Source: a virus. From it: 38,618 nt of DNA. The notes under the pieces are model-generated. The model saw nothing but the letters and a program-made list of their open reading frames with translations, had not been told where the DNA came from and ran no database searches. Each line of letters opens with the position of its first letter. Positions within the stretch are counted from its first letter, which is position 1. Location: the UHGV virus genome UHGV-0392077. One strand, given 5' to 3'. The translations under genes were made by a program, and so were the position numbers. Of the stretch, positions 934-34,979 are shown one piece after another.

Positions 934-948
934 TTACCTTAAAGGTAT
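934..948. promoter_or_regulatory. operator-like palindrome TTACC-ttaaa-GGTAT (imperfect copy)
   Basis: Matches the dispersed TTACC-N5-GGTAA motif; lies 43 bp upstream of the int start. Confidence 0.4.
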
Positions 949-5991: not shown

Positions 5992-6006
5992 TTACCGTTG
6001 AGGTAA
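5992..6006. promoter_or_regulatory. operator-like palindrome TTACC-gttga-GGTAA
   Basis: Perfect half-sites; between the leftward promoter candidate and the first leftward ORF. Confidence 0.5.
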
Positions 6007-6034
6007 TGATTATGCGTATCTGGTTTGATGTCAA
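6007..6034 (-). promoter_or_regulatory. candidate leftward early promoter (PL-like)
   Basis: Minus strand reads TTGACA (6034..6029) followed by CATAAT-like -10 (6014..6009); spacer is only about 14-16 nt, so exact hexamers are uncertain. Flanked by two operator palindromes. Confidence 0.35.
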
Positions 6035-6053
6035 TAGATATGAGTTAAAAAAA

Positions 6054-6068
6054 TTACCCATAAGGTAA
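6054..6068. promoter_or_regulatory. operator-like palindrome ATTACC-cataa-GGTAAT
   Basis: Perfect 17-bp palindrome (6053-6069). Confidence 0.5.
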
Positions 6069-6125: not shown

Positions 6126-6710
6126 TTATTGTTTGCTTTTTTCGTTCTGGTTGATGACAAATTCAATGTAACTTTCGATCTTTGCCTTCTCTGTTTCAGG
6201 TAACAATGCGTAGCGCGAGCGATCATAGTTGATAGTCGCAGGGTCGTGCGGGTGAATCAGTAATTCATAGCCGTGACGCCCGAATGCGGATGCAACATTC
6301 TCCAGGGTGGAAATGGAAACGCTGACTTCATTGTTTAACAGGCGGCTGATTGTCACCTGGGCGACGCCGGATGCGCGGTGAAGTTTTCCCTGTGTTGAAA
6401 GGTCGCGGCTTTCGCTCATCCAGCGTTCCAGGTTGTGAGCCGCCAGCTGACCAATGTCGCTTGGGCCGACAGGCTGAAACCCCTCCTGAGAAAGCGAGCG
6501 ATCGATATCAAGCCAGTTACGGGGTTTATTGGCGGCAGCTTCAATTTTTCGCGCAACCTGGTCGCCGATAACCTTCTTGCCAAGAGCCCAGCGGTTTACC
6601 AGATTTGCCTGAGTTCCAAGTTTTTCTGCCATCCGCGTCTGAACACCATTGAATTCACGGTCGATCAAGTCGTTGAGATTTTGCCTGCGGACGTCCTGGA
6701 TACTTTTCAT
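6126..6710 (-). CDS. phage repressor (CI-like), two HTH-like segments, no S24 peptidase domain
   Basis: 194 aa; HTH-like segments GVQTRMAEKLGTQANLVNRWALGKK and GVAQVTISRLLNNE; no Ser/Lys autoprotease signature. Divergent from the Cro-like gene across an operator cluster. Confidence 0.65.
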   Translation of the reverse strand: MKSIQDVRRQNLNDLIDREFNGVQTRMAEKLGTQANLVNRWALGKKVIGDQVARKIEAAANKPRNWLDIDRSLSQEGFQPVGPSDIGQLAAHNLERWMSESRDLSTQGKLHRASGVAQVTISRLLNNEVSVSISTLENVASAFGRHGYELLIHPHDPATINYDRSRYALLPETEKAKIESYIEFVINQNEKSKQ

Positions 6711-6765: not shown

Positions 6766-6780
6766 TTACCCAACAGGTAA
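6766..6780. promoter_or_regulatory. operator-like palindrome TTACC-caaca-GGTAA (site 1 of the divergent-promoter cluster)
   Basis: Perfect half-sites in the repressor/cro intergenic region. Confidence 0.55.
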
Positions 6781-6782
6781 AT

Positions 6783-6797
6783 GCACCTCATAGGTAA
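6783..6797. promoter_or_regulatory. operator-like variant GCACC-tcata-GGTAA (site 2)
   Basis: Right half-site perfect, left half degenerate; a near-identical GCACC-tcaaa-GGTAA occurs at 7151-7165. Confidence 0.4.
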
Positions 6798-6803
6798 CTA
6801 TCC

Positions 6804-6835
6804 TTGATTTTTGTTACCTTATGGGTGAATATTTA
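6804..6835 (+). promoter_or_regulatory. candidate rightward early promoter (PR-like)
   Basis: TTGATT at 6804-6809, then an A/T-rich -10 candidate around 6828-6835; operator site 3 lies in the spacer. Confidence 0.35.
6814..6828. promoter_or_regulatory. operator-like palindrome TTACC-ttatg-GGTGA (site 3)
   Basis: Same TTACCTTAnnGGTGAAT variant as the site at 9115-9129. Confidence 0.5.
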
Positions 6836-7456: not shown

Positions 7457-8267
7457 GGTTGAAGTTATCACTCCTGATAAACCTGAAATTTTTCAGATAG
7501 CAGAAATTCTGGGTATTGATCCAGATGCTGTTCTTGGAAAGCTGGTTCGTATATGGGCATGGGCTGACCAGCAAACAATAGACGGTAACGCTGGCAGCGT
7601 TACAAAAGGAGTACTTGATAGACTCGCTTTTATTACAGGATTTGCTGACGCCCTCATTAGCGTCGGATGGCTTGCTTATCATGACGGCAAACTAATTCTT
7701 CCAAACTTTGAGCGACACAATGGAGAATCATCGAAAAAACGTGCACTTACGAATAGAAGAGTGGCAGAGCATCGAAAACGAGTAACGCAAAAAGTAACGC
7801 CAACAGCGTTACAAAAGGAGTTACCAGAGGAAGAGGAAGAGGAAGATATATATAAAACCCCACACATAGCGCACGTGCGCGAGGGTGCTCCGACCAGTGA
7901 AGCGAACGGTATGCCGTTGCAGGTGGCTGAACCTGAATTTCTGGATGGCCTGAGTGAACCCATCGGGAAATTTCCGATGACCGATGGCTGGCATCCGTCG
8001 CCGGATTTTCGACGGCGTGCTGCGCTGTGGGGAACGGCCCTGCCGGAACCGGAATTTACACCTGCTGAACTTGCTGCATTCCGGGATTACTGGATGGCTG
8101 AGGGCAAAGTGTTCACGCAGGTTCAGTGGGAACAAAAATTCGCCAGGCACGTAAATCATATCAGGGGAAAATCAAAAAACGCCGGGAAAAGCGATGAGCT
8201 TGACTGGAATAACACTGACTGGATAGAAGGGGTGTGGGATGAAATCAACTCCAGAACTTCTCAATGA
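7437..8267 (+). CDS. replication initiation protein with DnaT-like C-terminal domain
   Basis: C-terminus GKFPMTDGWHPSPDFRRRAALWGTALPEPEFTPAELAAFRDYWMAEGKVFTQVQWEQKFARHV closely parallels the E. coli DnaT C-terminus as I recall it. ATG 7437 with SD-like AGAGGGG. Iteron-like repeats lie inside the gene. Confidence 0.7.
   Translation: MASSWIKVEVITPDKPEIFQIAEILGIDPDAVLGKLVRIWAWADQQTIDGNAGSVTKGVLDRLAFITGFADALISVGWLAYHDGKLILPNFERHNGESSKKRALTNRRVAEHRKRVTQKVTPTALQKELPEEEEEEDIYKTPHIAHVREGAPTSEANGMPLQVAEPEFLDGLSEPIGKFPMTDGWHPSPDFRRRAALWGTALPEPEFTPAELAAFRDYWMAEGKVFTQVQWEQKFARHVNHIRGKSKNAGKSDELDWNNTDWIEGVWDEINSRTSQ
7585..7860. repeat. iteron-like repeats plus AT-rich tract: candidate replication origin inside the initiator gene
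   Basis: GTAACGCT/AGCGTTAC inverted pair at 7585-7603; AGTAACGC at 7781 and 7793; 17-bp direct repeat AGCGTTACAAAAGGAGT at 7596-7612 and 7805-7821, read in different codon phases; then GAGGAAGAGGAAGAGGAAGA and TATATATAAAA (7845-7857). Confidence 0.35.
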
Positions 8268-9015
8268 GTACGATCGCTTACGTGAGCATGGTGTTGCTGT
8301 GCATGAAGAGCGGCGTGACAGCAATGGCAAAAAGGAGCAGGTCGCTAGAATTTTCAATGAACTATTTGTCCAGTTACAGGCTGCATTTCCTGCAAGCGTT
8401 TCGACCATAAGGGAGCAGAACAAACTTAATGAATTCCGTAAGCAATGGATGCTTGCGTTTCTGGAGAATGGGATCACTACAATGGAACAGGTTAACGCTG
8501 GTATGCGCTACGCCCGCGCCAGTGAATCTCCGTTCTGGCCGTCGCCAGGGCAATTTATCAAGTGGTGTAAAGACAGCAAGATGGTTCTTGGCGTCACCAT
8601 TGACGATGTGATGGCGGAGTTTCACCGGTACAGCAAGGAAAAAAGTTTATATCCTGGTGGTCCCGAAAGATTCCCGTGGCGGCATCCGGTTATGTACTGG
8701 GTCGTATGTGATACCCGCCGTGCAATGTATCAGCGCCAGCTTAGCGAGATTGAGGTTGAGAAACACGCGCGCAGGCTGCTCGATGATTGGGCGAAAAAGG
8801 TGGCTTCCGGGCAGCAGATACCAGATCCGGTGATCAGCATACAGGCAAAGCCAGAACCCATGAGTACGCCTCCGGACACAGGGAGAGACGTTTACCACCC
8901 GCCAGGGCGAAGTTTCGGGTGCATGCCTAACGCCGCCACCACGGGGGGAATAACACCGGCGCAGTGGCTGATGGAGGAATACAGGCGGGGAAAGGCGGCA
9001 GGATTTATCAAGTAA
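8239..9015 (+). CDS. lambda P-like replication protein (DnaB helicase loader)
   Basis: Segment QVARIFNELFVQLQAAFPASVSTIREQNKLNEFRKQWMLAFLENGITTMEQVNAGMRYARASESPFWPSPGQFIKWC is near-collinear with phage lambda P as recalled (…FPASLANRDQNEVNEIRRQWVLAFRENGITTMEQVNAGMRVARRQNRPFLPSPGQFVAWC…). Confidence 0.8.
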   Translation: MKSTPELLNEYDRLREHGVAVHEERRDSNGKKEQVARIFNELFVQLQAAFPASVSTIREQNKLNEFRKQWMLAFLENGITTMEQVNAGMRYARASESPFWPSPGQFIKWCKDSKMVLGVTIDDVMAEFHRYSKEKSLYPGGPERFPWRHPVMYWVVCDTRRAMYQRQLSEIEVEKHARRLLDDWAKKVASGQQIPDPVISIQAKPEPMSTPPDTGRDVYHPPGRSFGCMPNAATTGGITPAQWLMEEYRRGKAAGFIK

Positions 9016-9052
9016 TACCAGCGCGATAGCGCATTTTTTTACGTCTCAACAA

Positions 9053-9067
9053 TTACCTATCAGGTAA
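9053..9067. promoter_or_regulatory. operator-like palindrome ATTACC-tatca-GGTAAT
   Basis: Perfect 17-bp palindrome in the 117-bp gap after the P-like gene. Confidence 0.5.
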
Positions 9068-9114
9068 TAAAATATTCTAAACTCTATTGATTTCGTGTCT
9101 TATGTGGTTTTTAA

Positions 9115-9129
9115 TTACCTTAGAGGTGA
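9115..9129. promoter_or_regulatory. operator-like palindrome TTACC-ttaga-GGTGA
   Basis: Overlaps the SD region 4 nt upstream of ATG 9133. Confidence 0.45.
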
Positions 9130-9132
9130 ATC

Positions 9133-9477
9133 ATGAGAAAACAGATACAGGCTCTTGGTCGACTCAAAACAGGCCAGATGAACAAAACAGAATCTGCGTA
9201 TTGCCAGCACCTTGAGCTGCGTAAACGTGCAGGGGAAATCGCCTGGTATCGATTCGAGGGTATCAAGCTGCGGTTAGCTGACAACACGTTCTATACGCCA
9301 GATTTCGCAGTGATGCTCGCCACCGGAGAGATGGAACTGCACGAAGTGAAAGGTTTCTGGACCGATGACGCCAGGGTGAAAACCAAAGTCGCCGCAGATC
9401 AGTATCCGTTCCGAATCATCGGGGTAACGGTTAAACCAAAGAAAGCAGGTGGTGGCTGGAACATCGAAGAGTTCTGA
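9133..9477 (+). CDS. hypothetical protein, DUF1064-like (possible nuclease)
   Basis: 114 aa; the family assignment is from memory of the overall pattern (YTPDFAV ... HEVKG) and is unverified. Confidence 0.45.
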   Translation: MRKQIQALGRLKTGQMNKTESAYCQHLELRKRAGEIAWYRFEGIKLRLADNTFYTPDFAVMLATGEMELHEVKGFWTDDARVKTKVAADQYPFRIIGVTVKPKKAGGGWNIEEF

Positions 9478-9538
9478 ATCGACGATCTTTTTAGTTATCA
9501 ATGTAATCAATAAGTTATGTGGATAAGCGAGGGTAAAG

Positions 9539-10060
9539 ATGGAAAGTAATATCAAAGGGTTAGTTGCCGCCGGGCATGAGATGGCTTCGGAACTGAAAGC
9601 AGAATGTGGTGCCGTTGATATGCGTAGTGTGGCAAAGCTGCTCAGCGATTTTGCAACGCAACTGGAAGTGCAACTGGTGCGTGCTAATGCGCTGGCTGCG
9701 GAGAATGCGGGGCTGAAGTCGAACCTGATTTGCTGGGGCGGCGAAGATTCAGGGGCTGTCAGAAGTCCGCTTGATTACGCCCGTGCAGCCGGGCTGGAAT
9801 CTGGAGAGGAGTTTGAGATGCAAGTGGCAGCCAGAATGCCGAACCTGACTTATCGCGTTGTGTCGAATTCCCGATTCAGAACAACAATAGAACTGGTTGA
9901 CGGATCATTGCCGGAAACCCCAGCCACCAATGCTTTTCTGGCTGAAGTACGGGCGCAGGGGGTTGAGATGATGCGCGAACACCCATCAATCAAACTTTGC
10001 TCTTTGACGCACATATGTGACGAGTTCGCCGCCCAGCTTCGCAAAGGAGGCAACCAGTGA
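9539..10060 (+). CDS. hypothetical protein
   Basis: 173 aa ORF with an SD-like GAGGG upstream; no recognisable motif. Confidence 0.45.
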   Translation: MESNIKGLVAAGHEMASELKAECGAVDMRSVAKLLSDFATQLEVQLVRANALAAENAGLKSNLICWGGEDSGAVRSPLDYARAAGLESGEEFEMQVAARMPNLTYRVVSNSRFRTTIELVDGSLPETPATNAFLAEVRAQGVEMMREHPSIKLCSLTHICDEFAAQLRKGGNQ

Positions 10061-10683
10061 GCAAGATTGACTATCAGGCACTGCGTGAAAAGGCAGAGAA
10101 AGCAACGTGTGGGGTGTGGTCGCTCGAATATGGAGAGAGCCGATTTGATTGTGATGATGCGCTAATTCATCGTGACGTTGTTGGATATCTTCCCATTTGC
10201 AGAATTGAAGGAGCGCATCCAGAAAGCGGTTTCGATGAAGATTTCCAAATGGAACAGCAGGCCAATGCTGAATTCATCGCCGCAGTCAATCCAGCTACCG
10301 TCTTGGCGCTGCTGGATGAACGGGGAATCCCAAAACAAGCTATTGCAGAACTGGAGAAAAGCGAAGAGCAACTCATTAACGAGCGTGACCATGCTGAGTC
10401 TGCTTTAGATGATATGTACTTTGCAGCAACCGGTAACAGGCCGGAGTGGAGCAACTGGTTCGGCTTTTCAGATGCTGTCGATGCCGTGGTTGACAGAATT
10501 GCTGATTTAGAAGCTCAACAGCCATCGCCAGTAGTACCGGAAGGACTGGTTAAAGCAGTGCGCTTCTATGAACAGGTTAAGCGTGAAAATCCGCCAGTCG
10601 AAACCGGAGCATGGAAAGACGCTGTTGACTGGGTGCTCAAAGAGGCTTGCCAGGTTGTAAACACTGGCATCAAAGGAGAGTGA
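10057..10683 (+). CDS. Ead/Ea22-like protein (putative)
   Basis: GTG 10057 overlaps the upstream stop (GTGA) and follows AAAGGAGG. N-terminus IDYQALREKAEKATCGVW and acidic coiled-coil-like middle resemble Ead/Ea22-family prophage proteins. Confidence 0.45.
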   Translation: MSKIDYQALREKAEKATCGVWSLEYGESRFDCDDALIHRDVVGYLPICRIEGAHPESGFDEDFQMEQQANAEFIAAVNPATVLALLDERGIPKQAIAELEKSEEQLINERDHAESALDDMYFAATGNRPEWSNWFGFSDAVDAVVDRIADLEAQQPSPVVPEGLVKAVRFYEQVKRENPPVETGAWKDAVDWVLKEACQVVNTGIKGE

Positions 10684-10684
10684 T

Positions 10685-11200
10685 ATGGCGTTAACACACC
10701 GCGAACTCTGTCAGATTGCGTACAAGTTCCTTAAGCGCAACGGTTTCAAGGTTTGTTTTCATGACCGCTTTATAGCTGTAACCAGTACCGGAGAACAGCC
10801 AGATGCTATGGGATTCAGAAATTCAGCATCATGCCTGATAGAGGCGAAGTGTTCTCGTGCTGACTTGTTAGCAGATAGAAAAAAGCGTTTTCGTAAAAAT
10901 CCGTCTCTTGGAATGGGCGACTGGCGATTCTTTATTAGTGAGCCGGGAATTATTTCAATTGAGGATTTACCACCTGGCTGGGGATTACTTCACGTTGTTA
11001 ACGGAAGAGTACGGAAAGTACATGGGTGGCCCAAGGGTAATTGCTGTTGGGGTAATCCTGACGATAAGCCATTTACTGGGAATAAGCAGGTTGAATGCGA
11101 TTACATGTTATCTGCATTAAGGCGCATGGAGTTGAGAGGGCACCTTAATGAAATATATGACGGTGTAATTGTTAATAAGAAAGAAGGAAACGCGGCATGA
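10685..11200 (+). CDS. hypothetical protein with PD-(D/E)xK-like motif
   Basis: 171 aa; D...IEAK arrangement (DAMGF...CLIEAKCS) suggestive of a restriction-endonuclease-like fold; unverified. Confidence 0.4.
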   Translation: MALTHRELCQIAYKFLKRNGFKVCFHDRFIAVTSTGEQPDAMGFRNSASCLIEAKCSRADLLADRKKRFRKNPSLGMGDWRFFISEPGIISIEDLPPGWGLLHVVNGRVRKVHGWPKGNCCWGNPDDKPFTGNKQVECDYMLSALRRMELRGHLNEIYDGVIVNKKEGNAA

Positions 11201-12081
11201 TCACTATTACCAATAGCAAACTAACAGACGAATACGTTTCAAATGCAACGTTGATTCGGCTCATTCTGTGGGCTGACCAGCACAATAGCCATTATGTTGT
11301 AGCGGCTCTGCGCGAGCTACAGGAGCGCCGCAAGGCTGATAGTGTGCCTGTAGAAGTCAACGACGACATGGCTTACGCATTCCATCACGCACTGTCAGAT
11401 TCATCGCTAGGCGCTGATGAAGTAGAGGAAATTAAGGCCGGTTTGCGTGCTGCCTTTGCCAATGTCACCGTCCAGCCGGTGCTGATAGTGCCGGATGAAA
11501 TCGAGCCAGACGATAGCAATACGTTTGATTATGTTGATGGCTGGAACGCCTGCCGCGCCGCCATGCTTCAGGCTGGAAACTTTCGGGAAAATAAGGATTC
11601 GCCAACCAATAATTTTCGGGAAATCTCGGAAACGTCAACCAACTATCCGGTAATTCCTAGTGAGGTGTTGTCCGCAATCCAGAAGGTTGCCAAGATTCGT
11701 GCCGATTTCGATGATTTTGACGGTGACAGGCGAGGTATCGGTGATTGTCTGGATGAGGCTGAGCAAGAGCTTATCGTTACCATTAACAAATATGCCAGTC
11801 AGTTGGCAGCAGAACCTATAGCGCCTAATGACGTTCGAGAGCAGACAGCCATTCCGCAAGTTCCGGTAACTCCGGATAGTTGGATAAGCTGTAGTGAGCG
11901 AATGCCAGATGATGGTCAGCACGTAATTATTTTATGTGATGGCGCATTCGTTCTTTATGCGCAATATCGAGACGGTGAGTTTTTTGATGTTGTCCGCAAT
12001 GGTGAGGAGTTCTTCGAAACGCAGAGCCGCAATGTAACCCACTGGATGCCGCTACCAGAACCGCCGCAGGAGGTGAAGTGA
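11197..12081 (+). CDS. Ead/Ea22-like protein with DUF551-like C-terminus (putative)
   Basis: 294 aa; C-terminus WISCSERMPDDGQHVIIL...YAQYRDGEFF...THWMPLPEPP resembles the DUF551 module common in prophage early regions. Confidence 0.45.
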   Translation: MITITNSKLTDEYVSNATLIRLILWADQHNSHYVVAALRELQERRKADSVPVEVNDDMAYAFHHALSDSSLGADEVEEIKAGLRAAFANVTVQPVLIVPDEIEPDDSNTFDYVDGWNACRAAMLQAGNFRENKDSPTNNFREISETSTNYPVIPSEVLSAIQKVAKIRADFDDFDGDRRGIGDCLDEAEQELIVTINKYASQLAAEPIAPNDVREQTAIPQVPVTPDSWISCSERMPDDGQHVIILCDGAFVLYAQYRDGEFFDVVRNGEEFFETQSRNVTHWMPLPEPPQEVK

Positions 12082-12365
12082 TGGACTCCTTCGCGAAATA
12101 TACGATTATTGACTGGATAGCCTTCCTTCAGGTTTTGCTCATCTGGTTTTATATGGCTTACAGGAGTGGACAGTGGATTGTCAGTGTAGCCTGTAGCAAG
12201 GGATGGCGTTGGTGGAACCGAAAGAATAAAAAAGCACTGGCATTGGATTCGTTTTACGAAGCATTCAATCTTAACAGCCTTCAGCCTGGTTCTGTCATTG
12301 TAGTCACCACTCAAAGCGGCATGACGATACAAATTCACAAGCCAAAGGAGGAAGGTCGTGGCTAA
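12081..12365 (+). CDS. hypothetical membrane protein
   Basis: ATG 12081, 7 nt after AGGAGG; N-terminal hydrophobic helix (IIDWIAFLQVLLIWFYMAY). Confidence 0.45.
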   Translation: MDSFAKYTIIDWIAFLQVLLIWFYMAYRSGQWIVSVACSKGWRWWNRKNKKALALDSFYEAFNLNSLQPGSVIVVTTQSGMTIQIHKPKEEGRG

Positions 12366-12639
12366 CCTGCAACTTGCCGTTAAAGGTGAATACTTCGATG
12401 CCATGATTCGCGGGGAGAAAACGGAAGAGTATCGCCTGTGTAATGACTACTGGAATAAGCGAATTATGTTACGGGTGTATGACCGTCTGATTATCACAAA
12501 GGGATATCCGAAGCGCGACGATTCCAGTCGCAGAATTGATGTTCCGTATGGCGGATATGAAATAAAGACAATCACACATCCCCACTTCGGCGATAAACCG
12601 GTAAAGGTGTTCGCGATAAAGGTAAATATTGATGGCTAA
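12358..12639 (+). CDS. ASCH/DUF3850-like small protein (putative)
   Basis: GTG 12358 after AAGGAGGAAGG; VKGEYFDAMIRGEKTEEYRLCND pattern resembles ASCH-type domains. Confidence 0.4.
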   Translation: MANLQLAVKGEYFDAMIRGEKTEEYRLCNDYWNKRIMLRVYDRLIITKGYPKRDDSSRRIDVPYGGYEIKTITHPHFGDKPVKVFAIKVNIDG

Positions 12640-12970
12640 ATCAGCAGCAGAGCGCAAAGCCGCTCAGAGAGCCAGACAAGCTGCATCTGGTGTGCGTAAG
12701 CTGGAGATTGTGCTTGATGCTCAGGAAATTGAAATGCTGGAGCGTAACTGTGCCACGCGTCGCCCCGGGCATGCGCCTTACGAATTTGGTGAGTATATAG
12801 CGTTACTGATCCGCCAGGATGATGCACGCGTGCGCGGGCGTATAAAATCGATCAGCAGAAAACGTTGCGGTAAGTGCGGCGAGAGAGTTCCAGTTAATTC
12901 ATGCCCGTGTAATGGTGACTCGCAATGCTGGGTGACTAAAGGCTGGCATGAAACGAAATTAATAGTGTGA
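12632..12970 (+). CDS. hypothetical DNA-binding-like protein with C-terminal Cys cluster; candidate late regulator
   Basis: Basic N-terminus AKSAAERKAAQRARQAASGVRKLEIVLDAQEIEMLE and C-terminal C-G-K-C ... C-P-C-N-G; last gene before the late-operon junction. Function inferred from position only. Confidence 0.4.
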   Translation: MAKSAAERKAAQRARQAASGVRKLEIVLDAQEIEMLERNCATRRPGHAPYEFGEYIALLIRQDDARVRGRIKSISRKRCGKCGERVPVNSCPCNGDSQCWVTKGWHETKLIV

Positions 12971-12978
12971 CATGTCAC
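12967..12978. repeat. perfect 12-bp palindrome GTGACATGTCAC (copy 1 of 3)
   Basis: Exact string; contains the TGA stop of the upstream gene; followed by GAAGGTGTTAT. Confidence 0.9.
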
Positions 12979-12987
12979 GAAGGTGTT

Positions 12988-13200
12988 ATGCCAAAAATAC
13001 GCTACGACCTTGAAGATATGAGAGATAACTCAGCAAATTTTCCGAAAGAGGTTAAATTTCTCATGCATAAGTATGGTTGCGCCAGGAGGGATATAGTTAT
13101 CGACAGTCAGCACCCTTGCGGCGAGGATGTAATTTTCATTCGCGGTAAATGGGAAGGGTATCTTGACGAGAGTTTTTACGATGAATTTGATGGACTTTGA
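12988..13200 (+). CDS. hypothetical small protein (70 aa)
   Basis: ATG 12988 with AAGGTG upstream; could alternatively be part of a late-operon leader. Confidence 0.35.
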   Translation: MPKIRYDLEDMRDNSANFPKEVKFLMHKYGCARRDIVIDSQHPCGEDVIFIRGKWEGYLDESFYDEFDGL

Positions 13201-13205
13201 ATACT

Positions 13206-13231
13206 GCCGCCAACTATGGCGGCTTTATTTT
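13206..13231 (+). terminator. rho-independent terminator immediately upstream of the terminase genes
   Basis: GCCGCC-AACTAT-GGCGGC followed by TTTATTTT. Confidence 0.6.
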
Positions 13232-13242
13232 GCATGGTACTA

Positions 13243-13257
13243 TTACCACAACGGTAA
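13243..13257. promoter_or_regulatory. operator-like palindrome TTACC-acaac-GGTAA (plus imperfect TTACC-acggt-GGTTA at 13261-13275)
   Basis: Between the terminator and the terminase small-subunit start. Confidence 0.5.
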
Positions 13258-13274
13258 CAATTACCACGGTGGTT

Positions 13275-13871
13275 ATGATGCCTGCTGAACCTAAAACCTA
13301 TAAACGCAAATCAACGCAATTTAAGCCGCTCACAGCAATGCAGGAGGCTTATTGCCAGTCATACATCAAAACGCCTGAAAACCAGACTCAGGCAGCGATT
13401 AACGCAGGATTCTCCCCAAATACAGCGGCAGTTAAAGCCAGTGTCATGATGCGCGATGAACGCATTCAAAAACGGATTGCCGAGCTGATGGAAGAGCGCA
13501 ACAAACGAATGCGCGTCAGTGCCGATTACGTTCTCATGCGCCTGGTGGAGATCGACCAGATGGACGTGATTGATATCCTCAACGACGATGGGAGCCTTAA
13601 GCCAATCCGCGAGTGGCCGAAAATCTGGCGCACTACGCTTAGTGGCTTTGATCTGTCATCGACCATCATGAACATGAACGAGGATTCGATAGAGACAATC
13701 CTCAAAAAAATTAAATGGCCTGACAAGGTGAAGAACCTCGAACTGATTGGTAAGCACGTCGACGTCAACGCATTCAAAGAACGCCTGGATGTTAATGTGA
13801 ATGTGACAATTGCTGATCGCATAGCGGCAGCCAGGAAGCGACTCAAAGAACGTCAGGATGGTAATCAGTGA
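13275..13871 (+). CDS. terS: terminase small subunit
   Basis: LTAMQEAYCQSYIKTPENQTQAAINAGFSPNTAAVKASVMMRDERIQKRIAELMEER matches the HTH-containing small-terminase pattern (Terminase_2/P27-like, as recalled). Start moved to ATG 13275 because the ORF-track N-terminus translates the terminator and operator. Confidence 0.7.
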   Translation: MMPAEPKTYKRKSTQFKPLTAMQEAYCQSYIKTPENQTQAAINAGFSPNTAAVKASVMMRDERIQKRIAELMEERNKRMRVSADYVLMRLVEIDQMDVIDILNDDGSLKPIREWPKIWRTTLSGFDLSSTIMNMNEDSIETILKKIKWPDKVKNLELIGKHVDVNAFKERLDVNVNVTIADRIAAARKRLKERQDGNQ

Positions 13872-15370: not shown

Positions 15371-15420
15371 ATCCTCTGATGAGGATAAAACAAAGCCAGC
15401 TCATCGGCTGGCTGTTTGTG
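15371..15420. terminator. bidirectional terminator region between terL (+) and the minus-strand moron gene
   Basis: Two adjacent hairpins (ATCCTC-TGAT-GAGGAT; AGCCAGC-TCATCG-GCTGGCT) with T-rich runs on both strands. Confidence 0.45.
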
Positions 15421-15429
15421 ACATGTCAC
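15418..15429. repeat. perfect 12-bp palindrome GTGACATGTCAC (copy 2 of 3)
   Basis: Exact string, followed by GGTGTTATT; abuts the terminator hairpin and lies 5 nt beyond the stop of gene 15434..15808. Confidence 0.9.
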
Positions 15430-15433
15430 GGTG

Positions 15434-15808
15434 TTATTGCTCGCTTAACTTCTGCTTCAGCAAGTAACCTTCAAGTATCCAGATTTTGTTTACAGCATTC
15501 TGCCGGGCAATCTTCCGACCAATTTCCGCATCAAAGTTTTCCGGGCTTGCACAGGCGCTCTCTCCGGTGACGGTGAAGCCATTCTTCAGTACCAATACGC
15601 AGAAAGTGAGAAGGTGCAGAGCATCAGGGGTGGCTTCAACATAAGGCTCCGGATTATAAATAAGGTCATCTTCTTTAGCCTGGTGGTCACCCTGCGCAGC
15701 AGTGAAAAAATGCTCACTGCAAATGAGGCCTTCAATTTTCTCAGGTGTTACACGCGGTGCCGTTTTGCCTTTCTCAACGATTTCTTTTTCGATTTGCTGG
15801 TCGTTCAT
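15434..15808 (-). CDS. hypothetical protein (124 aa), moron gene antisense to the late operon
   Basis: ATG 15808 preceded by AAGGTGAG; transcribed opposite to the flanking terminase and portal genes and bracketed by hairpins. No confidently recognised motif. Confidence 0.55.
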   Translation of the reverse strand: MNDQQIEKEIVEKGKTAPRVTPEKIEGLICSEHFFTAAQGDHQAKEDDLIYNPEPYVEATPDALHLLTFCVLVLKNGFTVTGESACASPENFDAEIGRKIARQNAVNKIWILEGYLLKQKLSEQ

Positions 15809-15819
15809 AATCTCACCTT

Positions 15820-15843
15820 AAAAAAATGCCCGGCGAACCGGGC
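15820..15843 (-). terminator. hairpin plus T-run immediately upstream of the moron gene (possible attenuator)
   Basis: Minus strand GCCCGG-TTCG-CCGGGC followed by ATTTTTTT, only about 12 nt before the gene's ATG. Confidence 0.35.
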
Positions 15844-15919
15844 GAACTGGAAGCAATGAGTTATGCCTTCCGTGGCTGTACTGGTTTACAGCATGAAGTC
15901 ATCGCAATGGCGTCCTGCT

Positions 15920-15963
15920 GTAAAAAGGGCGGTGATAGTCCTTCAAGGGAAACCATCACCGCC
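15920..15963 (-). terminator. candidate terminator downstream of the tRNA
   Basis: 9-bp stem GGCGGTGAT/ATCACCGCC with an 18-nt loop, followed on the minus strand by CTTTTTA. The loop is large, so confidence is low. Confidence 0.3.
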
Positions 15964-16006
15964 AAGCACCTGGAACTTCTGGCATCACGGTCCTTAGGCG
16001 TGATTC

Positions 16007-16083
16007 TGGCGTGGCATGCAGGATTCGAACCTGCGACCAACCGCTTAGAAGGCGGTTGCTCTGTCCAGCTGAGCTAATGCCAC
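16007..16083 (-). tRNA. tRNA-Arg(UCU): tRNA-Arg (anticodon UCU), argU-like, CCA encoded
   Basis: Minus strand folds by hand into a cloverleaf: acceptor GTGGCAT/ATGCCAC, D-arm GCTC...GAGC, anticodon stem ACCGC/GCGGT with loop CTTCTAA (anticodon TCT), T-arm GCAGG-TTCGAAT-CCTGC, discriminator G plus CCA. Resembles E. coli argU as recalled. Confidence 0.8.
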
Positions 16084-16405
16084 AACGCTGAGAGCACTTA
16101 GCCTGTTAAGGCACCACACTTTGTCGCGGCTCCATAAATGCTCTCATCGTTGTACCCTCGTCTCTTCCGAGGTGTCACACCGAATCGCCGGGATGGTGAA
16201 TCCCCGTGCGCGGAATAAAACCGCTCGACTTGCACATTCCGGCTACCTGGTTCGTTTGCCCGAGCAAGGGAGGGTGCCCCTTAAACGTATCCAGACCGCT
16301 ATCGGCGCATGTGCCATACGCCGTACTGCTCAAAATAAAAGCTCACTCCACCTGTTCAATTTAACGACAAGCCAGTCAGGTTAGTAACCGGAATGAACTC
16401 TTTGG

Positions 16406-16420
16406 TTACCTGAAAGGTAA
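16406..16420. promoter_or_regulatory. operator-like palindrome TTACC-tgaaa-GGTAA
   Basis: In the non-coding region upstream of the portal operon; the flanking GGTAATAATTTG is repeated again at about 16478. Confidence 0.5.
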
Positions 16421-16510
16421 TAATTTGTGCGTTAAATGTCAACTATCTAAAATAAATAAATCATATGTGGTTAAATTGGTAATAATTTGATTGCGTACGG
16501 AGTCATTGAT

Positions 16511-19416: not shown

Positions 19417-20403
19417 ATGGCTGTTAAAGGCTTAACTGCGCTAACGCTGGCTGACTGGGGTAAGCGCGTCGATCCAAACGGGAAAGTCGATAAGATTATC
19501 GAGCTTCTCGGTCAAACTAACCCGATCCTTCAGGATATGCCTTTTGTCGAAGGGAACCTTCCTACCGGACACCGAACCACCATTCGTTCTGGTTTACCTT
19601 CAGCTACCTGGCGTTTGCTGAACTATGGCGTACAGCCAAGCAAATCAACCACAGTGCAGGTAACCGATTCCGTTGGCATGCTGGAAACCTATGCTGAAGT
19701 AGATAAGTCACTGGCTGATCTGAACGGTAATACCGCCGAATTCCGCCTGTCTGAAGACCGCGCATTTATTGAAGCGATGAATCAGCAGATGGCGCAGACG
19801 CTGTTTTATGGTGATTCCAGCGTTAACCCTCAGCAGTTTATGGGACTGTCCTCCCGCTATTCCAGCCTGTCTGCGGGTAATGCTCAGAACATCATTGATG
19901 CTGGTGGCACGGGTACAGATAACACCTCAATCTGGTTAGTGGTGTGGGGCGAAAACACCGTGCATGGCATCTTCCCGAAAGGGCAGAAGGCTGGCATCCA
20001 GATGGAAGATAAAGGCCAGGTGACACTGGAAGATGCTAATGGCGGCAAGTACGAAGGCTATCGCACCCATTACAAATGGGATAACGGACTTGCTCTGCGT
20101 GACTGGCGTTATGTTGTTCGCATTGCAAACATCCATGTCAGCAATCTTTCAGAACCTTCCTCTGCCGCAAATATTGCGAAGTTGATGGTTAAAGCACTGC
20201 ATCGCATTCCAAACCGTGGCATGGGCCGCCCGGTGTTCTACATGAACCGCACTGTAGGCCAGGCTCTTGATCTGCAGTCTCTGGAGAAAACATCTCTGGC
20301 GATTAGCGTAAAAGAGACTGAAGGCGAGTGGTGGACGTCATTCCGTGGTGTACCAATCCGTGAAACTGATGCGCTTCTGGAAACAGAAGCCCGCGTGGTG
20401 TAA
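19417..20403 (+). CDS. major capsid protein
   Basis: About 328 aa following the scaffold gene; ATG 19417 has better SD spacing than ATG 19411. The call rests on position and size. Confidence 0.65.
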   Translation: MAVKGLTALTLADWGKRVDPNGKVDKIIELLGQTNPILQDMPFVEGNLPTGHRTTIRSGLPSATWRLLNYGVQPSKSTTVQVTDSVGMLETYAEVDKSLADLNGNTAEFRLSEDRAFIEAMNQQMAQTLFYGDSSVNPQQFMGLSSRYSSLSAGNAQNIIDAGGTGTDNTSIWLVVWGENTVHGIFPKGQKAGIQMEDKGQVTLEDANGGKYEGYRTHYKWDNGLALRDWRYVVRIANIHVSNLSEPSSAANIAKLMVKALHRIPNRGMGRPVFYMNRTVGQALDLQSLEKTSLAISVKETEGEWWTSFRGVPIRETDALLETEARVV

Positions 20404-32715: not shown

Positions 32716-33096
32716 ATGAGAAAAGTATTTTTGATTTTTGGATTTATGCTTCTCGTTGGATGCCAGTCAGCTGCACAGTTTGAAAGAAATATGCTTACGT
32801 GGCGTGGGCAGAGTATAGACGCAATGGTTCAGCAGTGGGGGTATCCTCAGGGAGAGCTTACATCTCCAGATGGAAACAGAGTGTATGTTTACTCAAGCTC
32901 TGGTAGTTATAACGTACCACAAACCACAACGTATAATACTACGTCTAATCTAATTGGTAATACTATATATTCAAACACATATGCAACAACTGATGGCGGT
33001 TATACACTCCATTTCAGTTGCTCTGTTTACGTTGAGTTTGGTGCTGATAAGATTATTAAAAATGTTACATGGCGCGGTAATAATTGCGTTGCGTGA
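32716..33096 (+). CDS. lipoprotein (moron; possible superinfection-exclusion factor)
   Basis: Signal peptide MRKVFLIFGFMLLVGC with lipobox LVG|C; AGGGG 6 nt upstream of ATG 32716; conspicuously AT-rich compared with its flanks. Confidence 0.65.
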   Translation: MRKVFLIFGFMLLVGCQSAAQFERNMLTWRGQSIDAMVQQWGYPQGELTSPDGNRVYVYSSSGSYNVPQTTTYNTTSNLIGNTIYSNTYATTDGGYTLHFSCSVYVEFGADKIIKNVTWRGNNCVA

Positions 33097-33104
33097 CATG
33101 TCAC
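33093..33104. repeat. perfect 12-bp palindrome GTGACATGTCAC (copy 3 of 3)
   Basis: Exact string; contains the TGA stop of the lipoprotein gene and abuts the terminator hairpin. Confidence 0.9.
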
Positions 33105-34013: not shown

Positions 34014-34028
34014 TTACCAATCGGGTAA
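34014..34028. promoter_or_regulatory. operator-like palindrome TTACC-aatcg-GGTAA
   Basis: Perfect half-sites between ant and the 108-aa gene. Confidence 0.5.
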
Positions 34029-34113: not shown

Positions 34114-34824
34114 TCAGAAGAACCCAGCCTTGTCGTTGATGTACTCCGCGTGTGTCTGGATATCACGCAGGCATTTGCTCACACCGACGATGTAGCAGAA
34201 CATGGTGGTCAGCTCCGCCGCCGCGCCCGATACGTCGTGCCCGTCTTCCTGTAACTGGTTCAGCAGATTCATCAGCAGTGAGTGCTCCGTCAGGCCGAGA
34301 ACACCAGACGGCGAATGAATCAGGCTACGGTAGCCGGGCTTCAGTGGGGCACTGTAGGTTTTGTTCTCTATCTTCATTGCCTGCATTACTGCTGACGCCG
34401 TGGCGTTGGCTACCTGGTCGGCAACCATCTTTATGCGTTCTTCCTGCGGTAGCGAGTTTTTAATGTAACTTCCGGTGCGGCGGATCTGAGGAAGAACCTC
34501 ACCTGTAACCCATTTGCGAAAGCGGTAGGGGATAGTGCCTGGTGTCACTGCGTCGCGGCAGCGGAGGATCAGTGTGTAGAGGCCTGACTCGGAGATGATG
34601 TTGATCTCTTTTACTCGGCTATCAAAAATTGCACGATGTTCATGCCCTATGTTGAACATAGACCTTTCATCATCATCCAGTTTTTCAAGTGCTTGGGTGA
34701 CGTTTTGGATACGCAGCGCACTACAAACGTCTTGGGCTACAAACCATGGTTGGCCATCGATAATGATGGAACGGATAGGGTTAACAGATTCAAATTTGAA
34801 GATGGCAGTTTGAGCATTAGCCAT
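34114..34824 (-). CDS. ant: antirepressor, Bro-N domain (Ant-like)
   Basis: N-terminus FKFESVNPIRSIIIDGQPWFVAQDVCSALRIQNVTQALEKLDDDE matches the Bro-N / P22 Ant-type domain. ATG 34824 with GGAG upstream. The C-terminal domain is paralogous to gene 35140..35397. Confidence 0.7.
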   Translation of the reverse strand: MANAQTAIFKFESVNPIRSIIIDGQPWFVAQDVCSALRIQNVTQALEKLDDDERSMFNIGHEHRAIFDSRVKEINIISESGLYTLILRCRDAVTPGTIPYRFRKWVTGEVLPQIRRTGSYIKNSLPQEERIKMVADQVANATASAVMQAMKIENKTYSAPLKPGYRSLIHSPSGVLGLTEHSLLMNLLNQLQEDGHDVSGAAAELTTMFCYIVGVSKCLRDIQTHAEYINDKAGFF

Positions 34825-34856: not shown

Positions 34857-34979
34857 CACCGCAACGCCAATTACTGGTGGTGAACTGGACAAGGTTGGCG
34901 TACCGGCCTAAGTGGTACCGGCGTCCTTTCGGACCCCTGCCCAGCCCACCATAATTCGGATATGGCTGTGCTTAACGCA

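What the first reader, a model, noticed from the sequence alone, without database searches (positions are those of the whole stretch)
9133..12970. nin-like accessory region with Ead/Ea22-like, DUF551-like, nuclease-like and ASCH-like small genes
Nine tightly packed, often overlapping small genes follow the replication module and are preceded by two operator sites. Several carry motifs of poorly characterised prophage families. Regions like this commonly hold anti-defence, host-takeover or toxin-like functions, and none of these genes has an assignable role from sequence alone.
Basis: inference. Interest (0 to 1): 0.4.

Follow-up and report, generated by a model that had tools for sequence, protein, structure and literature searches.

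The report
Repressor-controlled accessory operon of a prophage
This is the variable early accessory operon of a phiV10/epsilon15-type E. coli prophage, ordinary in kind, but its last conserved gene always ends at a 12-bp palindrome in very different phages, which points to an undescribed DNA-binding protein and its target site.

Summary
The window is a Uetakevirus (phiV10/epsilon15-like) prophage beside guaA. The + strand ORFs are tightly packed or overlapping and follow the DnaT-like and P-like replication genes. There are eight inside 9133-12970; a ninth (12988-13200) belongs to the same unit. The two upstream operator sites are real.

The region looks like its own repressor-controlled operon. 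It has a weak hairpin after P, a promoter with the same geometry as PL between two TTACC-N5-GGTAA operators, nine genes and a strong terminator.

Roles that can be assigned:
- ORF1 is a DUF1064/T7-endonuclease-I-like nuclease; epsilon15 has a RuvC resolvase in that slot.
- ORF4 is an MmcB-like PD-(D/E)XK fold.
- ORF6 is a small membrane protein.
- ORF7 is ASCH-like.
- ORF8 is a ribbon-helix-helix plus zinc-ribbon protein.

The middle is a hypervariable set of Ea22-type modular genes, with 59 gene orders in 63 relatives. No gene matches a defence catalogue.

New here: GTGAC-N2-GTCAC overlaps or follows the stop codon of ORF8 homologues in about eight phage lineages. It recurs at two other operon ends in this prophage. 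Its half-sites equal those of matS. Binding and function are inferred, not shown.

The parts
9021..9040 (+). Weak hairpin (GCGC stem) plus a run of seven U directly after the P-like gene; putative terminator
   Evidence: Fold (-8.7 kcal/mol, z -2.5). The equivalent position is annotated as a putative rho-independent terminator in phiV10. It was not picked up by the terminator scan.
9053..9067 (.). Operator site 1, TTACCTATCAGGTAA
   Evidence: It lies 19 nt upstream of the -35 element, the same as the distal OL site.
9087..9115 (+). Promoter-like element TTGATT-17-TTTAAT (inferred)
   Evidence: A gap-free alignment with the reverse complement of the PL region and with epsilon15 shows a conserved CTATTGA at the same distance between two operators. 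This stretch is invariant in the relatives shown.
9115..9129 (.). Operator site 2, TTACCTTAGAGGTGA; overlaps the -10 end and the ribosome-binding site of ORF1
   Evidence: It is 62 bp from site 1, the same spacing as the OL pair (5992 and 6054) and the epsilon15 pair (35907 and 35969).
9133..9477 (+). ORF1, 114 aa: DUF1064, a T7-endonuclease-I-like PD-(D/E)XK nuclease; probable junction-resolving enzyme
   Evidence: Pfam DUF1064, 31 bits against a cut-off of 24.7. phrog_190 'Holliday junction resolvase', E 7e-43. The motif P56-D57...E71-V-K73 aligns with T7 endonuclease I. Present in 62 of 63 relatives. Replaced by a RuvC resolvase in epsilon15.
9539..10060 (+). ORF2, 173 aa: Eae-like modular protein
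   Evidence: phrog_492, E 5e-50; its modules are shared with phrog_250 and phrog_368. An Ea-type gene always occupies this slot, at only 37-100% identity.
10057..10683 (+). ORF3, 208 aa: Ead/Ea22 N-terminal module plus a swappable C-terminal module
   Evidence: PF13935, E 1.3e-19, residues 2-118. The C-terminus matches phrog_26213 and phrog_660. The C-terminal modules also occur in Stx, P2-like and lytic phages.
10685..11200 (+). ORF4, 171 aa: MmcB-like PD-(D/E)XK nuclease fold
11197..12081 (+). ORF5, 294 aa: EaA-like N-terminal and middle modules fused to a C-terminal DUF551
   Evidence: PF04448, E 1.4e-21, residues 228-291. phrog_12449, phrog_14306 and phrog_60. PGAP reads it as two partial genes. 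It is split by a frameshift in L005.
12081..12365 (+). ORF6, 94 aa: DUF4752, a small basic protein with one N-terminal hydrophobic helix
   Evidence: PF15944, E 2.8e-36. Kyte-Doolittle 1.78 over residues 8-26. Present in 8 of 63 relatives.
12358..12639 (+). ORF7, 93 aa: ASCH-like
   Evidence: Pfam ASCH, E 0.024, below the cut-off. The GxKxxExR signature is present. phrog_625, E 2e-49. Present in 30 of 63 relatives; NinX takes the slot in others.
12632..12970 (+). ORF8, 112 aa: conserved ribbon-helix-helix plus Cys-rich zinc-ribbon protein (epsilon15 gp49 / N15 gp46 family)
12967..12978 (.). Palindrome GTGACATGTCAC overlapping the ORF8 stop codon; candidate ORF8 binding site
   Evidence: Three exact copies in the window. 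Syntenic copies in epsilon15. Linked to ORF8 homologues in about eight lineages.
12988..13200 (+). ORF9, 70 aa: acidic small protein (phrog_1541); the optional last gene of the unit
   Evidence: Present in 21 of 63 relatives. Alternative sequences begin directly at the palindrome.
13206..13231 (+). Strong intrinsic terminator that ends the unit
   Evidence: fold -16.2 kcal/mol, z -5.0. Conserved in relatives and in epsilon15.
13243..13275 (.). Two more operator sites (13243-13257, 13261-13275) directly before the probable true start of the small terminase subunit (13275/13278)
   Evidence: present in 63 of 63 relatives. epsilon15 annotates a repressor site at 12-27, before TerS at 47.
15418..15429 (.). 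Second copy of GTGACATGTCAC, next to the hairpin after the large terminase subunit gene
   Evidence: The left flank is conserved; the right flank falls into at least 6 unrelated classes.
33093..33104 (.). Third copy of GTGACATGTCAC; overlaps the stop codon of the last gene of the structural operon and sits just before a terminator
   Evidence: The syntenic epsilon15 copy at 19517 precedes the annotated terminator at 19531-19556.

Best explanation
The region is the second early-right transcription unit of a phiV10/epsilon15-type (Uetakevirus) prophage. Its proposed layout is as follows.

1. After the P-like replication gene comes a weak hairpin.
2. Then comes a promoter with the same layout as PL: operator, 19 nt, -35, 17 nt, -10, with the -10 overlapping a second operator.
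3. In the lysogen the prophage repressor would keep the unit off by binding the two TTACC-N5-GGTAA sites. After induction the unit is transcribed as far as the strong terminator at 13206-13231.

Its genes fall into three classes.

(a) A conserved first gene, a DUF1064/T7-endonuclease-I-like nuclease. It most likely resolves branched replication and recombination intermediates before packaging.

(b) A hypervariable middle made of swappable cassettes. It holds Ea22-type proteins, in which a conserved N-terminal or coiled-coil module carries interchangeable C-terminal modules. It also holds an MmcB-like nuclease, a small membrane protein (DUF4752) and an ASCH-like protein. These are dispensable accessory genes whose targets are unknown.

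(c) A conserved last gene, ORF8. It is a ribbon-helix-helix dimer-type DNA-binding protein with a C-terminal zinc ribbon. I propose that it binds GTGAC-N2-GTCAC. One copy overlaps its own stop codon. Two more copies lie at the ends of the terminase and structural operons. From there it would act on transcription across operon boundaries, either by termination or read-through, or by insulation.

Shown by sequence and comparison: the anatomy, the motif statistics, the conservation and the folds. Inferred: promoter activity, repressor binding, nuclease activities, ORF8 binding and its effect.
For: Identity and context. The stretch 9000-13300 is 100% identical to two E. coli chromosomes and is mosaic against phiV10-like phages.

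Operators. 15 sites against 0.67 expected. Exactly two sites before the unit and two after it in 63 of 63 relatives, none inside, and half-sites conserved while N5 varies. The same motif is annotated as repressor sites in epsilon15 at syntenic places.

Promoter. The P-ORF1 intergenic region aligns without gaps to the reverse complement of the PL region and to epsilon15, with both operators and CTATTGA in register.

Terminators..

ORF1.; PD-(D/E)XK prediction for DUF1064 in PMC1189080; non-orthologous replacement by RuvC in epsilon15.

Hypervariability. 54 ORF families, 59 gene orders in 63 loci, region length 2.5-5.1 kb, and 170 Ea-type proteins falling into 95 clusters. Module shuffling shows in the PHROG matches and in fusions of the ORF4 domain to Ead/Ea22 N-termini. 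This fits the published mosaic Ea22 architecture (PMC10834534).

ORF4..

ORF8..

Palindrome.
- Three exact copies in the window, against about 0.002 expected for an exact 12-mer.
- Three syntenic copies in epsilon15 and three in ZF40.
- In N15/phiKO2-like loci, 51 of 51 have a site at the stop codon; counting the two Vibrio loci as well, there are 56 sites in 423 kb against 0.4 expected.
- It also occurs in a P2-like Yersinia phage and in several Vibrio phage types.
- The central dinucleotide varies while the half-sites stay invariant.
Against: - No experimental or transcriptomic data were available. Promoter use, repressor binding and the transcript ends are all inferred.
- The hairpin after P is weak, so read-through from PR cannot be excluded.
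- The DNA-facing ribbon residues of the ORF8 family vary between lineages although the half-sites do not. It is therefore unclear which element reads GTGAC.
- The loci were chosen because they contain an ORF8 homologue, so the linkage rests on position and on the low background, not on an independent sample.
- One distant homologue (Aeromonas phage 32) has only a 1-mismatch site, upstream of the gene.
- In ZF40 two of the three sites lie inside early genes, not at operon ends. The operon-boundary role may therefore be specific to Uetakevirus.
- No function could be assigned to ORF2, ORF3, ORF5, ORF6, ORF7 or ORF9.
Confidence: 0.62

Rival explanations
1. The region is mainly an anti-defence, host-takeover or toxin island. 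On this view the variable middle genes inhibit host defence systems or reprogramme the host early after induction.
For: - Extreme cassette turnover between conserved anchors.
- Early, repressor-controlled expression.
- Modules are shared with the lambda and Stx exo-xis region, whose genes affect the lysis-lysogeny decision (PMC10834534 and PMC7093339).
- It contains a small membrane protein and nuclease folds.
Against: - No ORF matches PADLOC at E 0.1. That library holds defence systems, not anti-defence proteins.
- No PHROG host-takeover assignment survives checking.
- Near-identical prophages carry frameshifts in ORF3 or ORF5, so these genes are dispensable at least in the prophage state.
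- There is no direct evidence for any target.
- This reading is not exclusive of the best explanation.
Confidence: 0.3
2. The palindrome GTGAC-N2-GTCAC is not the binding site of ORF8. It would instead be a recombination or module-boundary sequence, an RNA element, or the site of a host factor that only happens to lie next to the gene.
For: - At sites 1 and 2 the left flank is conserved and the right flank breaks into unrelated sequence classes exactly at the palindrome.
- All three sites border variable moron regions.
- In the P2-like phage the gene and site lie after gene A. From my own knowledge, that position is a known cargo hotspot in P2-like phages.
- The half-sites equal those of host matS (PMC6907758).
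Against: - ORF8 is the only gene I identified as shared by these podo-, myo- and siphovirus lineages, going by their annotation tables; the gene sets were not compared directly.
- The site overlaps its stop codon in most lineages.
- The RNA hairpin would have only 4 base pairs.
- No 13-bp matS-type site exists in the three genomes checked, and MatP needs an N3 spacer.
- 12 bp is too short for homologous recombination, and no cognate recombinase is evident.
Confidence: 0.25
3. The region has no promoter of its own. It would be read through from PR as in lambda nin, and the two operator sites would act only as repressor roadblocks or as cooperative looping partners for OR and OL.
For: - The hairpin after P is weak and was not found by the terminator scan.
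- Both promoter candidates score only 9 of 12.
- Operator pairs with 62-bp spacing could serve looping.
Against: - The intergenic region aligns without gaps to the PL promoter region, with both operators and the CTATTGA -35 element in register. The same holds in epsilon15.
- The stretch is invariant among the otherwise diverging relatives shown.
Confidence: 0.2
4. The region is decaying junk. PGAP marks four pieces as pseudogenes, so on this view the ORFs are remnants without function.
For: - PGAP flags 9932-10060, 10685-10863, 11197-11646 and 11863-12081 as partial or frameshifted.
- Frameshift variants exist in L004 and L005.
Against: - In this window all nine ORFs are intact. They have Shine-Dalgarno sequences and coupled start and stop codons.
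- ORF4 is full-length against 37 homologues, with all catalytic residues present.
- ORF2 and ORF5 match PHROG profiles end to end.
- The PGAP flags are better explained by mosaic module fusion than by disruption.
Confidence: 0.05

Closest known systems
Early-right accessory region of Salmonella phage epsilon15 (gp43-gp49) and E. coli phage phiV10 (gp45-gp55)
   Same: - The same position, between the replication genes and the small terminase subunit.
- The same repressor motif in front of the region and behind it.
- The same terminator, and the same last gene (gp49/gp55 = ORF8).
- Eae-like, Ead/Ea22 and DUF551 genes in the middle.
- ASCH and DUF1064 genes in phiV10.

   Different: - The middle cargo differs. 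ORF4 and DUF4752 have no tblastn match in the phiV10 region and neither name appears in the epsilon15 annotation.
- epsilon15 has a RuvC-type resolvase in place of DUF1064.
- Neither record annotates the second operator, the promoter or the GTGACATGTCAC sites.
nin region of lambdoid phages (between P and Q)
   Same: - Located directly after the P-like gene, with a terminator at its start.
- Holds a junction-resolving nuclease, analogous to NinG/Rap or RusA.
- Relatives carry NinX (PF10765) and a weakly NinG-like HNH gene.
   Different: - There is no Q gene at the end of the region and no N-type antitermination is evident.
- It appears to have its own repressor-controlled promoter.
- Most of the genes are ea-type, not nin-type.
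exo-xis region of lambda and Stx phages (ea22, orf73 and others) and the ea genes of P22
   Same: - Ead/Ea22 N-terminal and coiled-coil modules carry interchangeable C-terminal domains, DUF551 among them.
- Strong mosaicism and early expression.
- Function unknown apart from pro-lysogenic effects of Ea22.
(PMC10834534, PMC7093339)
   Different: There the genes lie in the leftward PL operon, between exo and xis. Here they lie in a rightward unit after the replication genes.
MatP/matS of E. coli (organiser of the Ter macrodomain)
   Same: - matS is GTGACRNYGTCAC, with half-sites identical to the phage palindrome.
- MatP is a ribbon-helix-helix protein whose RHH is preceded by a basic helix and followed by a long helix. 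The ORF8 model has the same order of elements.
- The phage hosts listed for the family (Escherichia, Salmonella, Klebsiella, Yersinia, Pectobacterium, Vibrio, Aeromonas) belong, as far as I know, to bacterial groups that have MatP.
   Different: - The spacer is N2 (12 bp), not N3 (13 bp).
- ORF8 lacks the N-terminal four-helix bundle and has a zinc ribbon instead of the C-terminal tetramerisation coil.
- There is no detectable sequence homology (hhalign probability 0.4%; no Pfam MatP hit).
DksA/TraR-type zinc-finger proteins (F TraR, lambda Orf73, YbiI)
   Same: The C-terminal CxxCG..LP...C motif of the ORF8 family gives weak profile matches to TraR and YbiI (E 0.024-0.034). TraR homologues are common small early proteins of temperate phages (PMC9239242).
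   Different: - No support from fold comparison.
- There is no free N-terminal acidic helix that could reach the RNA polymerase active site.
- The cysteine spacing differs from CxxC-x17-CxxC.

Membership tests
epsilon15-type repressor operators (ATTACC-N5-GGTAAT) | Sequence motif identical to the sites annotated as repressor binding sites in epsilon15, and located at promoters | tested here: met
epsilon15-type repressor operators (ATTACC-N5-GGTAAT) | Bound by the prophage repressor | not testable with these tools
   Needs a gel shift, footprint or ChIP experiment.
lambda nin region | Lies between replication gene P and the late antiterminator Q, and is transcribed from PR through terminators by N antitermination | tested here: not met
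   There is a P-like gene upstream. No Q-like gene follows; the next genes are the terminase genes. A PL-like promoter with operators precedes the region.
lambda nin region | Contains nin-type genes (ninB, ninG/rap, ninX, rusA and others) | tested here: inconclusive
   There are none in this window by Pfam. ORF1 is a functional analogue. NinX and a weakly NinG-like HNH gene occur in relatives.
Ead/Ea22 (PF13935) | Pfam match above the gathering score | tested here: met
   ORF3 scores 71.6 bits against a cut-off of 27.
Ead/Ea22 (PF13935) | Conserved N-terminal or coiled-coil part with an interchangeable C-terminal domain | tested here: met
   Separate PHROG matches for residues 1-118 and 120-208. 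C-terminal modules are found in other contexts. The architecture is described in PMC10834534.
DUF551 (PF04448) | Pfam match above the gathering score | tested here: met
   ORF5 residues 228-291 score 77.5 bits against a cut-off of 22.
DUF1064 / T7 endonuclease I-like PD-(D/E)XK nucleases | Pfam match above the gathering score, plus the catalytic D...ExK motif | tested here: met
   31 bits against a cut-off of 24.7. P56-D57...E71-V-K73 aligns to the PDF...ETK motif of T7 endonuclease I.
DUF1064 / T7 endonuclease I-like PD-(D/E)XK nucleases | Cleaves Holliday junctions or branched DNA | not testable with these tools
   There is only the PHROG label and the positional replacement by RuvC in epsilon15.
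MmcB-like PD-(D/E)XK (PDB 3dnx type) | Restriction-endonuclease-like fold with a conserved D, ExK active site | tested here: met
MmcB-like PD-(D/E)XK (PDB 3dnx type) | Significant sequence-profile match | tested here: not met
   No Pfam hit at E 0.1. The profile against PDB gives 3dnx at only E 0.12.
ASCH domain (PF04266) | Pfam match above the gathering score | tested here: not met
   ORF7 scores 15.7 bits against a cut-off of 21.2, E 0.024.
ASCH domain (PF04266) | N-terminal GxKxxExR signature | tested here: met
   G19-E-K21-T-E-E24-Y-R26, read from the translation. PGAP names the identical protein ASCH domain-containing.
Ribbon-helix-helix DNA-binding proteins | A beta strand followed by two helices, forming a dimeric ribbon | tested here: inconclusive
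MatP/matS | Tripartite MatP fold (four-helix bundle, RHH, C-terminal coil) and detectable sequence homology | tested here: not met
   ORF8 is 112 aa with a single N-terminal helix and a zinc ribbon. hhalign is not significant. There is no Pfam MatP hit.
MatP/matS | 13-bp site GTGACRNYGTCAC | tested here: not met
   The phage sites are 12 bp (N2). No N3 site exists in the window, epsilon15 or ZF40.
DksA/TraR zinc-finger family | C4 zinc finger plus an N-terminal helix with acidic tip residues that enters the RNA polymerase secondary channel | tested here: inconclusive
   Weak profile matches, E 0.024-0.034. No fold support. No free acidic N-terminus.
Known anti-phage defence systems (PADLOC-DB 2.0) | A match to any model | tested here: not met
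   No hit at E 0.1 for any of the nine ORFs.

The most novel reading that the evidence does not exclude
The ORF8 family (epsilon15 gp49, phiV10 gp55, N15 gp46, ZF40 gp22) would be a widespread, uncharacterised phage counterpart of MatP. It would be a ribbon-helix-helix protein that recognises a matS-like palindrome, GTGAC-N2-GTCAC. One copy is always built into the end of its own gene, and one or two more lie 2.2-2.7 kb or further away. By binding, and perhaps bridging, these sites it would partition the phage genome into transcriptional or structural domains at the exact borders where variable modules are exchanged. It might also interfere with the host MatP/MukBEF system.
Probability: 0.15. 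Interest if true: 0.75.

Novelty: new member of a known kind. Interest (0 to 1): 0.4.

Why it matters
The region itself is a further example of a known type: the mosaic early accessory operon of phiV10/epsilon15-like prophages, which are common in E. coli. Parts of the query matched 3518 of 5426 complete genomes. Three results add value.

1. It gives a clean map of the conserved anchors and the exchangeable slots of this hotspot. That tells experimenters where to look for accessory functions.
2. It gives evidence that the operon has its own promoter with the same design as PL, under direct repressor control. This is part of a pattern of dispersed operators over the whole prophage.
3. It gives a precise, cheap-to-test prediction. 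A small protein family with no curated domain model (no Pfam or NCBIfam match; its PHROG carries only a generic 'transcriptional regulator' label) is found in podo-, myo- and siphoviruses of enterobacteria and vibrios. It should bind GTGAC-N2-GTCAC, a site with the half-sites of the chromosomal matS. If that holds, it opens the question of how these phages mark operon and module boundaries.

Tried and rejected
- RecBCD-inhibitor lead for ORF3 (phrog_4790, E 1.8e-7). A tblastn search with the C-terminal 128 residues found only Ea22, DUF551 and hypothetical proteins. Rejected.
- Homology of ORF8 to MatP. hhalign of the family profile against E. coli MatP was not significant. I keep this as an analogy, not as family membership.
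- Single-sequence PDB searches for ORF4, ORF7 and ORF8 gave nothing useful.
- PADLOC and NCBIfam gave nothing.
- Rfam found no RNA family inside 9000-13300.
- The repeat search inside the region found only the operator pair and short chance repeats.
- The palindrome as an RNA hairpin: the stem would have only 4 bp.
- Searches that failed or found nothing:
  - the afdb50 library was not available;
  - P0313 had no relatives in viral contigs;
  - the epsilon15 genome paper could not be fetched under the id I guessed;
  - no paper in the library contains the palindrome in a phage context.
- The third homologous-protein search was deliberately not used. Neither an ASCH profile nor a MatP profile would have been decisive.

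Full report
**What the window is.** Positions 9000-13300 are 100% identical to the chromosomes of two human E. coli isolates. They are mosaic (28-61% covered at 94-97% identity) against phiV10-like phages. The PGAP annotation of the identical chromosome shows the following order: guaA, an integrase, a leftward early operon (bet and a PD-(D/E)XK exonuclease), a repressor (window 6126-6710, minus strand), a cro-like gene, a DnaT-like gene, replication protein P (8239-9015), the region in question, the small and large terminase subunits, the head and tail genes, an antirepressor region, the tailspike and the lysis genes. So the window is a Uetakevirus (phiV10/epsilon15-type) prophage integrated at guaA. 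This matches the published attachment site of this group (PMC9782041).

**Checking the observation.** The + strand carries eight ORFs inside 9133-12970. A ninth (12988-13200) lies between the stated end and a strong terminator. Junctions overlap by 1-8 nt or leave gaps of 1-17 nt, apart from one 61-nt gap.

The domain calls in the title are correct:
- Ead/Ea22 (ORF3), DUF551 (C-terminus of ORF5), DUF1064 nuclease (ORF1) and DUF4752 (ORF6) all score above the Pfam cut-offs.
- ASCH (ORF7) scores below the cut-off (E 0.024) but carries the GxKxxExR signature, and PGAP names it ASCH.

The two operator sites are real. TTACC-N5-GGTAA occurs 15 times in the window with at most 1 mismatch, against 0.67 expected. 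The matches include the sites flanking the repressor gene. In 63 related prophages from IMG/VR there are exactly two sites after P and two before the small terminase gene, and none in the 220 kb in between. The half-sites are kept while the central five bases drift. The epsilon15 GenBank record annotates ATTACC-N5-GGTAAT as repressor binding sites at syntenic places. One lies between its replication gene and the first gene of the equivalent region.

**A transcription unit of its own.** The P-ORF1 intergenic region aligns without gaps to the reverse complement of the PL region of the same prophage, and also to epsilon15. The shared layout is operator, 19 nt, CTATTGA (-35), 17 nt, a -10-like hexamer, and a second operator overlapping the end of the -10. 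Both operator pairs are 62 bp apart.

Before this element is a weak hairpin with a run of seven U, which phiV10 annotates as a putative terminator. After ORF9 comes a strong terminator (-16.2 kcal/mol). It is followed by two more operators that abut the probable true start of the small terminase gene.

I therefore read 9087-13231 as a separate, directly repressor-controlled early operon. This differs from the lambda nin region, which is read from PR by antitermination. Promoter activity and repressor binding are inferred, not shown.

**Conserved anchors and variable cargo.** Among 63 relatives that contain the complete stretch from P to the small terminase gene:
- ORF1 is present in 62, at mostly 96-100% identity (74-76% in two loci).
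- ORF8 is present in 63, at 96% identity or more.
- An Ea-type gene always follows ORF1, but at only 37-100% identity.
- ASCH occurs in 30, ORF9 in 21, ORF4 in 8 and DUF4752 in 8.

There are 54 ORF families and 59 different gene orders. Region lengths run from 2.5 to 5.1 kb. The 170 Ea-type proteins fall into 95 clusters at 70% identity. Alternative cargo includes NinX, HNH endonucleases and DUF7739.

PHROG matches show module shuffling. The N-terminus of ORF2, ORF3 and ORF5 occur fused in other phages. The ORF4 domain is found fused to Ead/Ea22 N-termini. This is the mosaic Ea22 architecture described for lambda and Stx phages: an N-terminal part, a coiled coil and an interchangeable C-terminal domain, with function unknown beyond a pro-lysogenic effect (PMC10834534, PMC7093339).

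Two near-identical prophages carry a frameshift in ORF3 or in ORF5. PGAP flags pieces of ORF2, ORF4 and ORF5 as partial or frameshifted. In this window, however, the ORFs are intact and full-length against their families. I therefore attribute the flags to mosaicism.

**Genes with an assignable role.**
- ORF1 belongs to DUF1064, predicted long ago to be a PD-(D/E)XK nuclease related to T7 endonuclease I (PMC1189080). Its P56-D57...E71-V-K73 motif aligns with the catalytic motif of T7 endonuclease I. Its PHROG is labelled Holliday junction resolvase. epsilon15 has a RuvC-type resolvase in the same slot, which is a non-orthologous replacement and supports the role.
- ORF6 (DUF4752) has one N-terminal hydrophobic helix.
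- No ORF matches PADLOC. The one PHROG takeover hint (RecBCD inhibitor, ORF3) did not hold.
- ORF2, ORF3, ORF5, ORF7 and ORF9 remain without a function.

The stop codon of ORF8 lies inside a perfect palindrome, GTGACATGTCAC. This 12-mer occurs exactly three times in the window:
- at 12967;
- at 15418, next to the hairpin after the large terminase gene;
- at 33093, overlapping the stop codon of the last structural-operon gene and just before a terminator.

About 0.002 exact copies are expected by chance. epsilon15 has exactly three copies at the same three places. None of them is annotated.

The association holds in unrelated phages that carry an ORF8 homologue:
- ZF40, a myovirus (67% identity): TGTGACATGTCACA starts 2 nt after the stop, plus two further exact copies.
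- N15/phiKO2-like linear plasmid prophages (34-36% identity): GTGACTGGTCAC or a close variant overlaps the stop codon in 51 of 51 loci.
- Across these 51 loci and the two Vibrio loci there are 56 sites in 423 kb, against 0.4 expected.
- A P2-like Yersinia phage (41% identity): GTGACGCGTCAC overlaps the stop.
- Several Vibrio phage types: the site is at the stop, or 138-238 nt downstream with a second copy about 2.5-2.7 kb further on, in one case 30 nt before the small terminase gene.
- The one exception is a 29%-identical Aeromonas phage protein, which has only a 1-mismatch site upstream of the gene.

The central two bases vary (AT, TG, GG, GC, CC, AC, AG), but the half-sites never do. ORF8 is the only gene I identified as shared by these lineages, judging from their annotation tables rather than from a direct comparison. 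The simplest reading is therefore that ORF8 binds this site. I found no paper containing the sequence in a phage context.

**What the site might do.** In the Uetakevirus genomes all three copies sit at the ends of rightward operons, next to terminators. At sites 1 and 2 the left flank is conserved, while the right flank breaks into unrelated classes exactly at the palindrome. So the sites also mark the borders of exchangeable modules. In ZF40, however, two copies lie inside early genes, so an operon-end role may not be general.

The half-sites equal those of matS, the MatP site GTGACRNYGTCAC (PMC6907758). The ORF8 model shares with MatP the order basic helix, ribbon, helix, long helix. Three points count against membership: the spacer is one base shorter, ORF8 lacks the four-helix bundle and C-terminal coil of MatP, and sequence homology is not detectable. 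I treat this as an analogy and a lead, not as membership.

A caveat is that the DNA-facing ribbon positions of the family vary between lineages while the half-sites do not. The element that reads the bases is therefore unknown.

**Verdict.** The region is accessory and sits in the nin position. By content, however, it is an ea/exo-xis-type cassette array inside a separately repressed operon. At least three genes have assignable biochemical roles. An anti-defence role is neither supported nor excluded.

As a whole this is a new member of a known kind. The undescribed pairing of the ORF8 family with GTGAC-N2-GTCAC is the one element that deserves experimental follow-up.

Noticed in passing
window 934-948, 5992-6068, 6766-6828, 7151, 9053-9129, 13243-13275, 16406-16420, 34014-34028, 35094-35108, 35474-35488, 35706-35720, 37618-37632: The repressor operator motif TTACC-N5-GGTAA is spread over the whole prophage. 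It occurs in front of int, the portal operon, the antirepressor region and the tailspike, and inside a holin gene. This is a dispersed layout of the kind I recall for the P1 C1 repressor, rather than only OL and OR. Some of these sites are annotated in epsilon15.
   Followed up: partly
window 34873-34956 (-) and 34981-35057 (-): Rfam finds a C4 antisense RNA (66 bits) and an isrK Hfq-binding RNA (63.5 bits). They lie directly upstream of the Bro-N antirepressor gene (34114-34824, minus strand) and downstream of an operator at 35094. The layout resembles, as I recall it, the immI region of P1/P7.
   Followed up: no
window 13197-13278: The PGAP start of the small terminase gene (TTG at 13197) would place a strong terminator and two operator sites inside the coding sequence. 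By comparison with epsilon15, the true start is probably ATG at 13275 or 13278 (MMPAEP).
   Followed up: partly
window 12967/15418; L084 39612/2142; L141 5125/7622; L087 4205/6920; L143 4501/7026; L140 4517/7069: In several unrelated phages, pairs of GTGAC-N2-GTCAC sites lie 2.2-2.7 kb apart, although they bracket different genes (terminase genes, the immunity region, lysis genes). This is a post hoc observation and is unexplained.
   Followed up: partly
window 15418-16510: Between the large terminase gene and the portal operon lies a variable minus-strand insert. It holds a Gp49-family gene (15434-15808) and a tRNA-Arg with anticodon TCT (16007-16083). Relatives carry at least six unrelated sequences here, starting exactly at the palindrome.
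   Followed up: partly
L004 and L005 (IMG/VR relatives identical over most of the region): Frameshift variants occur here. ORF3 is split into 117 + 89 aa in L004, and ORF5 into 152 + 138 aa in L005. This suggests relaxed selection on these accessory genes in the prophage state.
   Followed up: no
window 11955-12404 (-): A 149-aa antisense ORF overlaps ORF5 and ORF6. It has no supporting evidence and runs against the GC skew of the region, so it is probably spurious.
   Followed up: no
L085 (ZF40), L086 (phiKO2), L142 (Yersinia P2-like phage): In other phages the ORF8 homologue is typically the last gene of an early operon. In ZF40 and phiKO2 it follows one or more DNA methyltransferase genes, and in the P2-like phage it follows replication gene A. 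ZF40 and phiKO2 also encode a Q-like antiterminator, so ORF8 is not simply a replacement for Q.
   Followed up: partly
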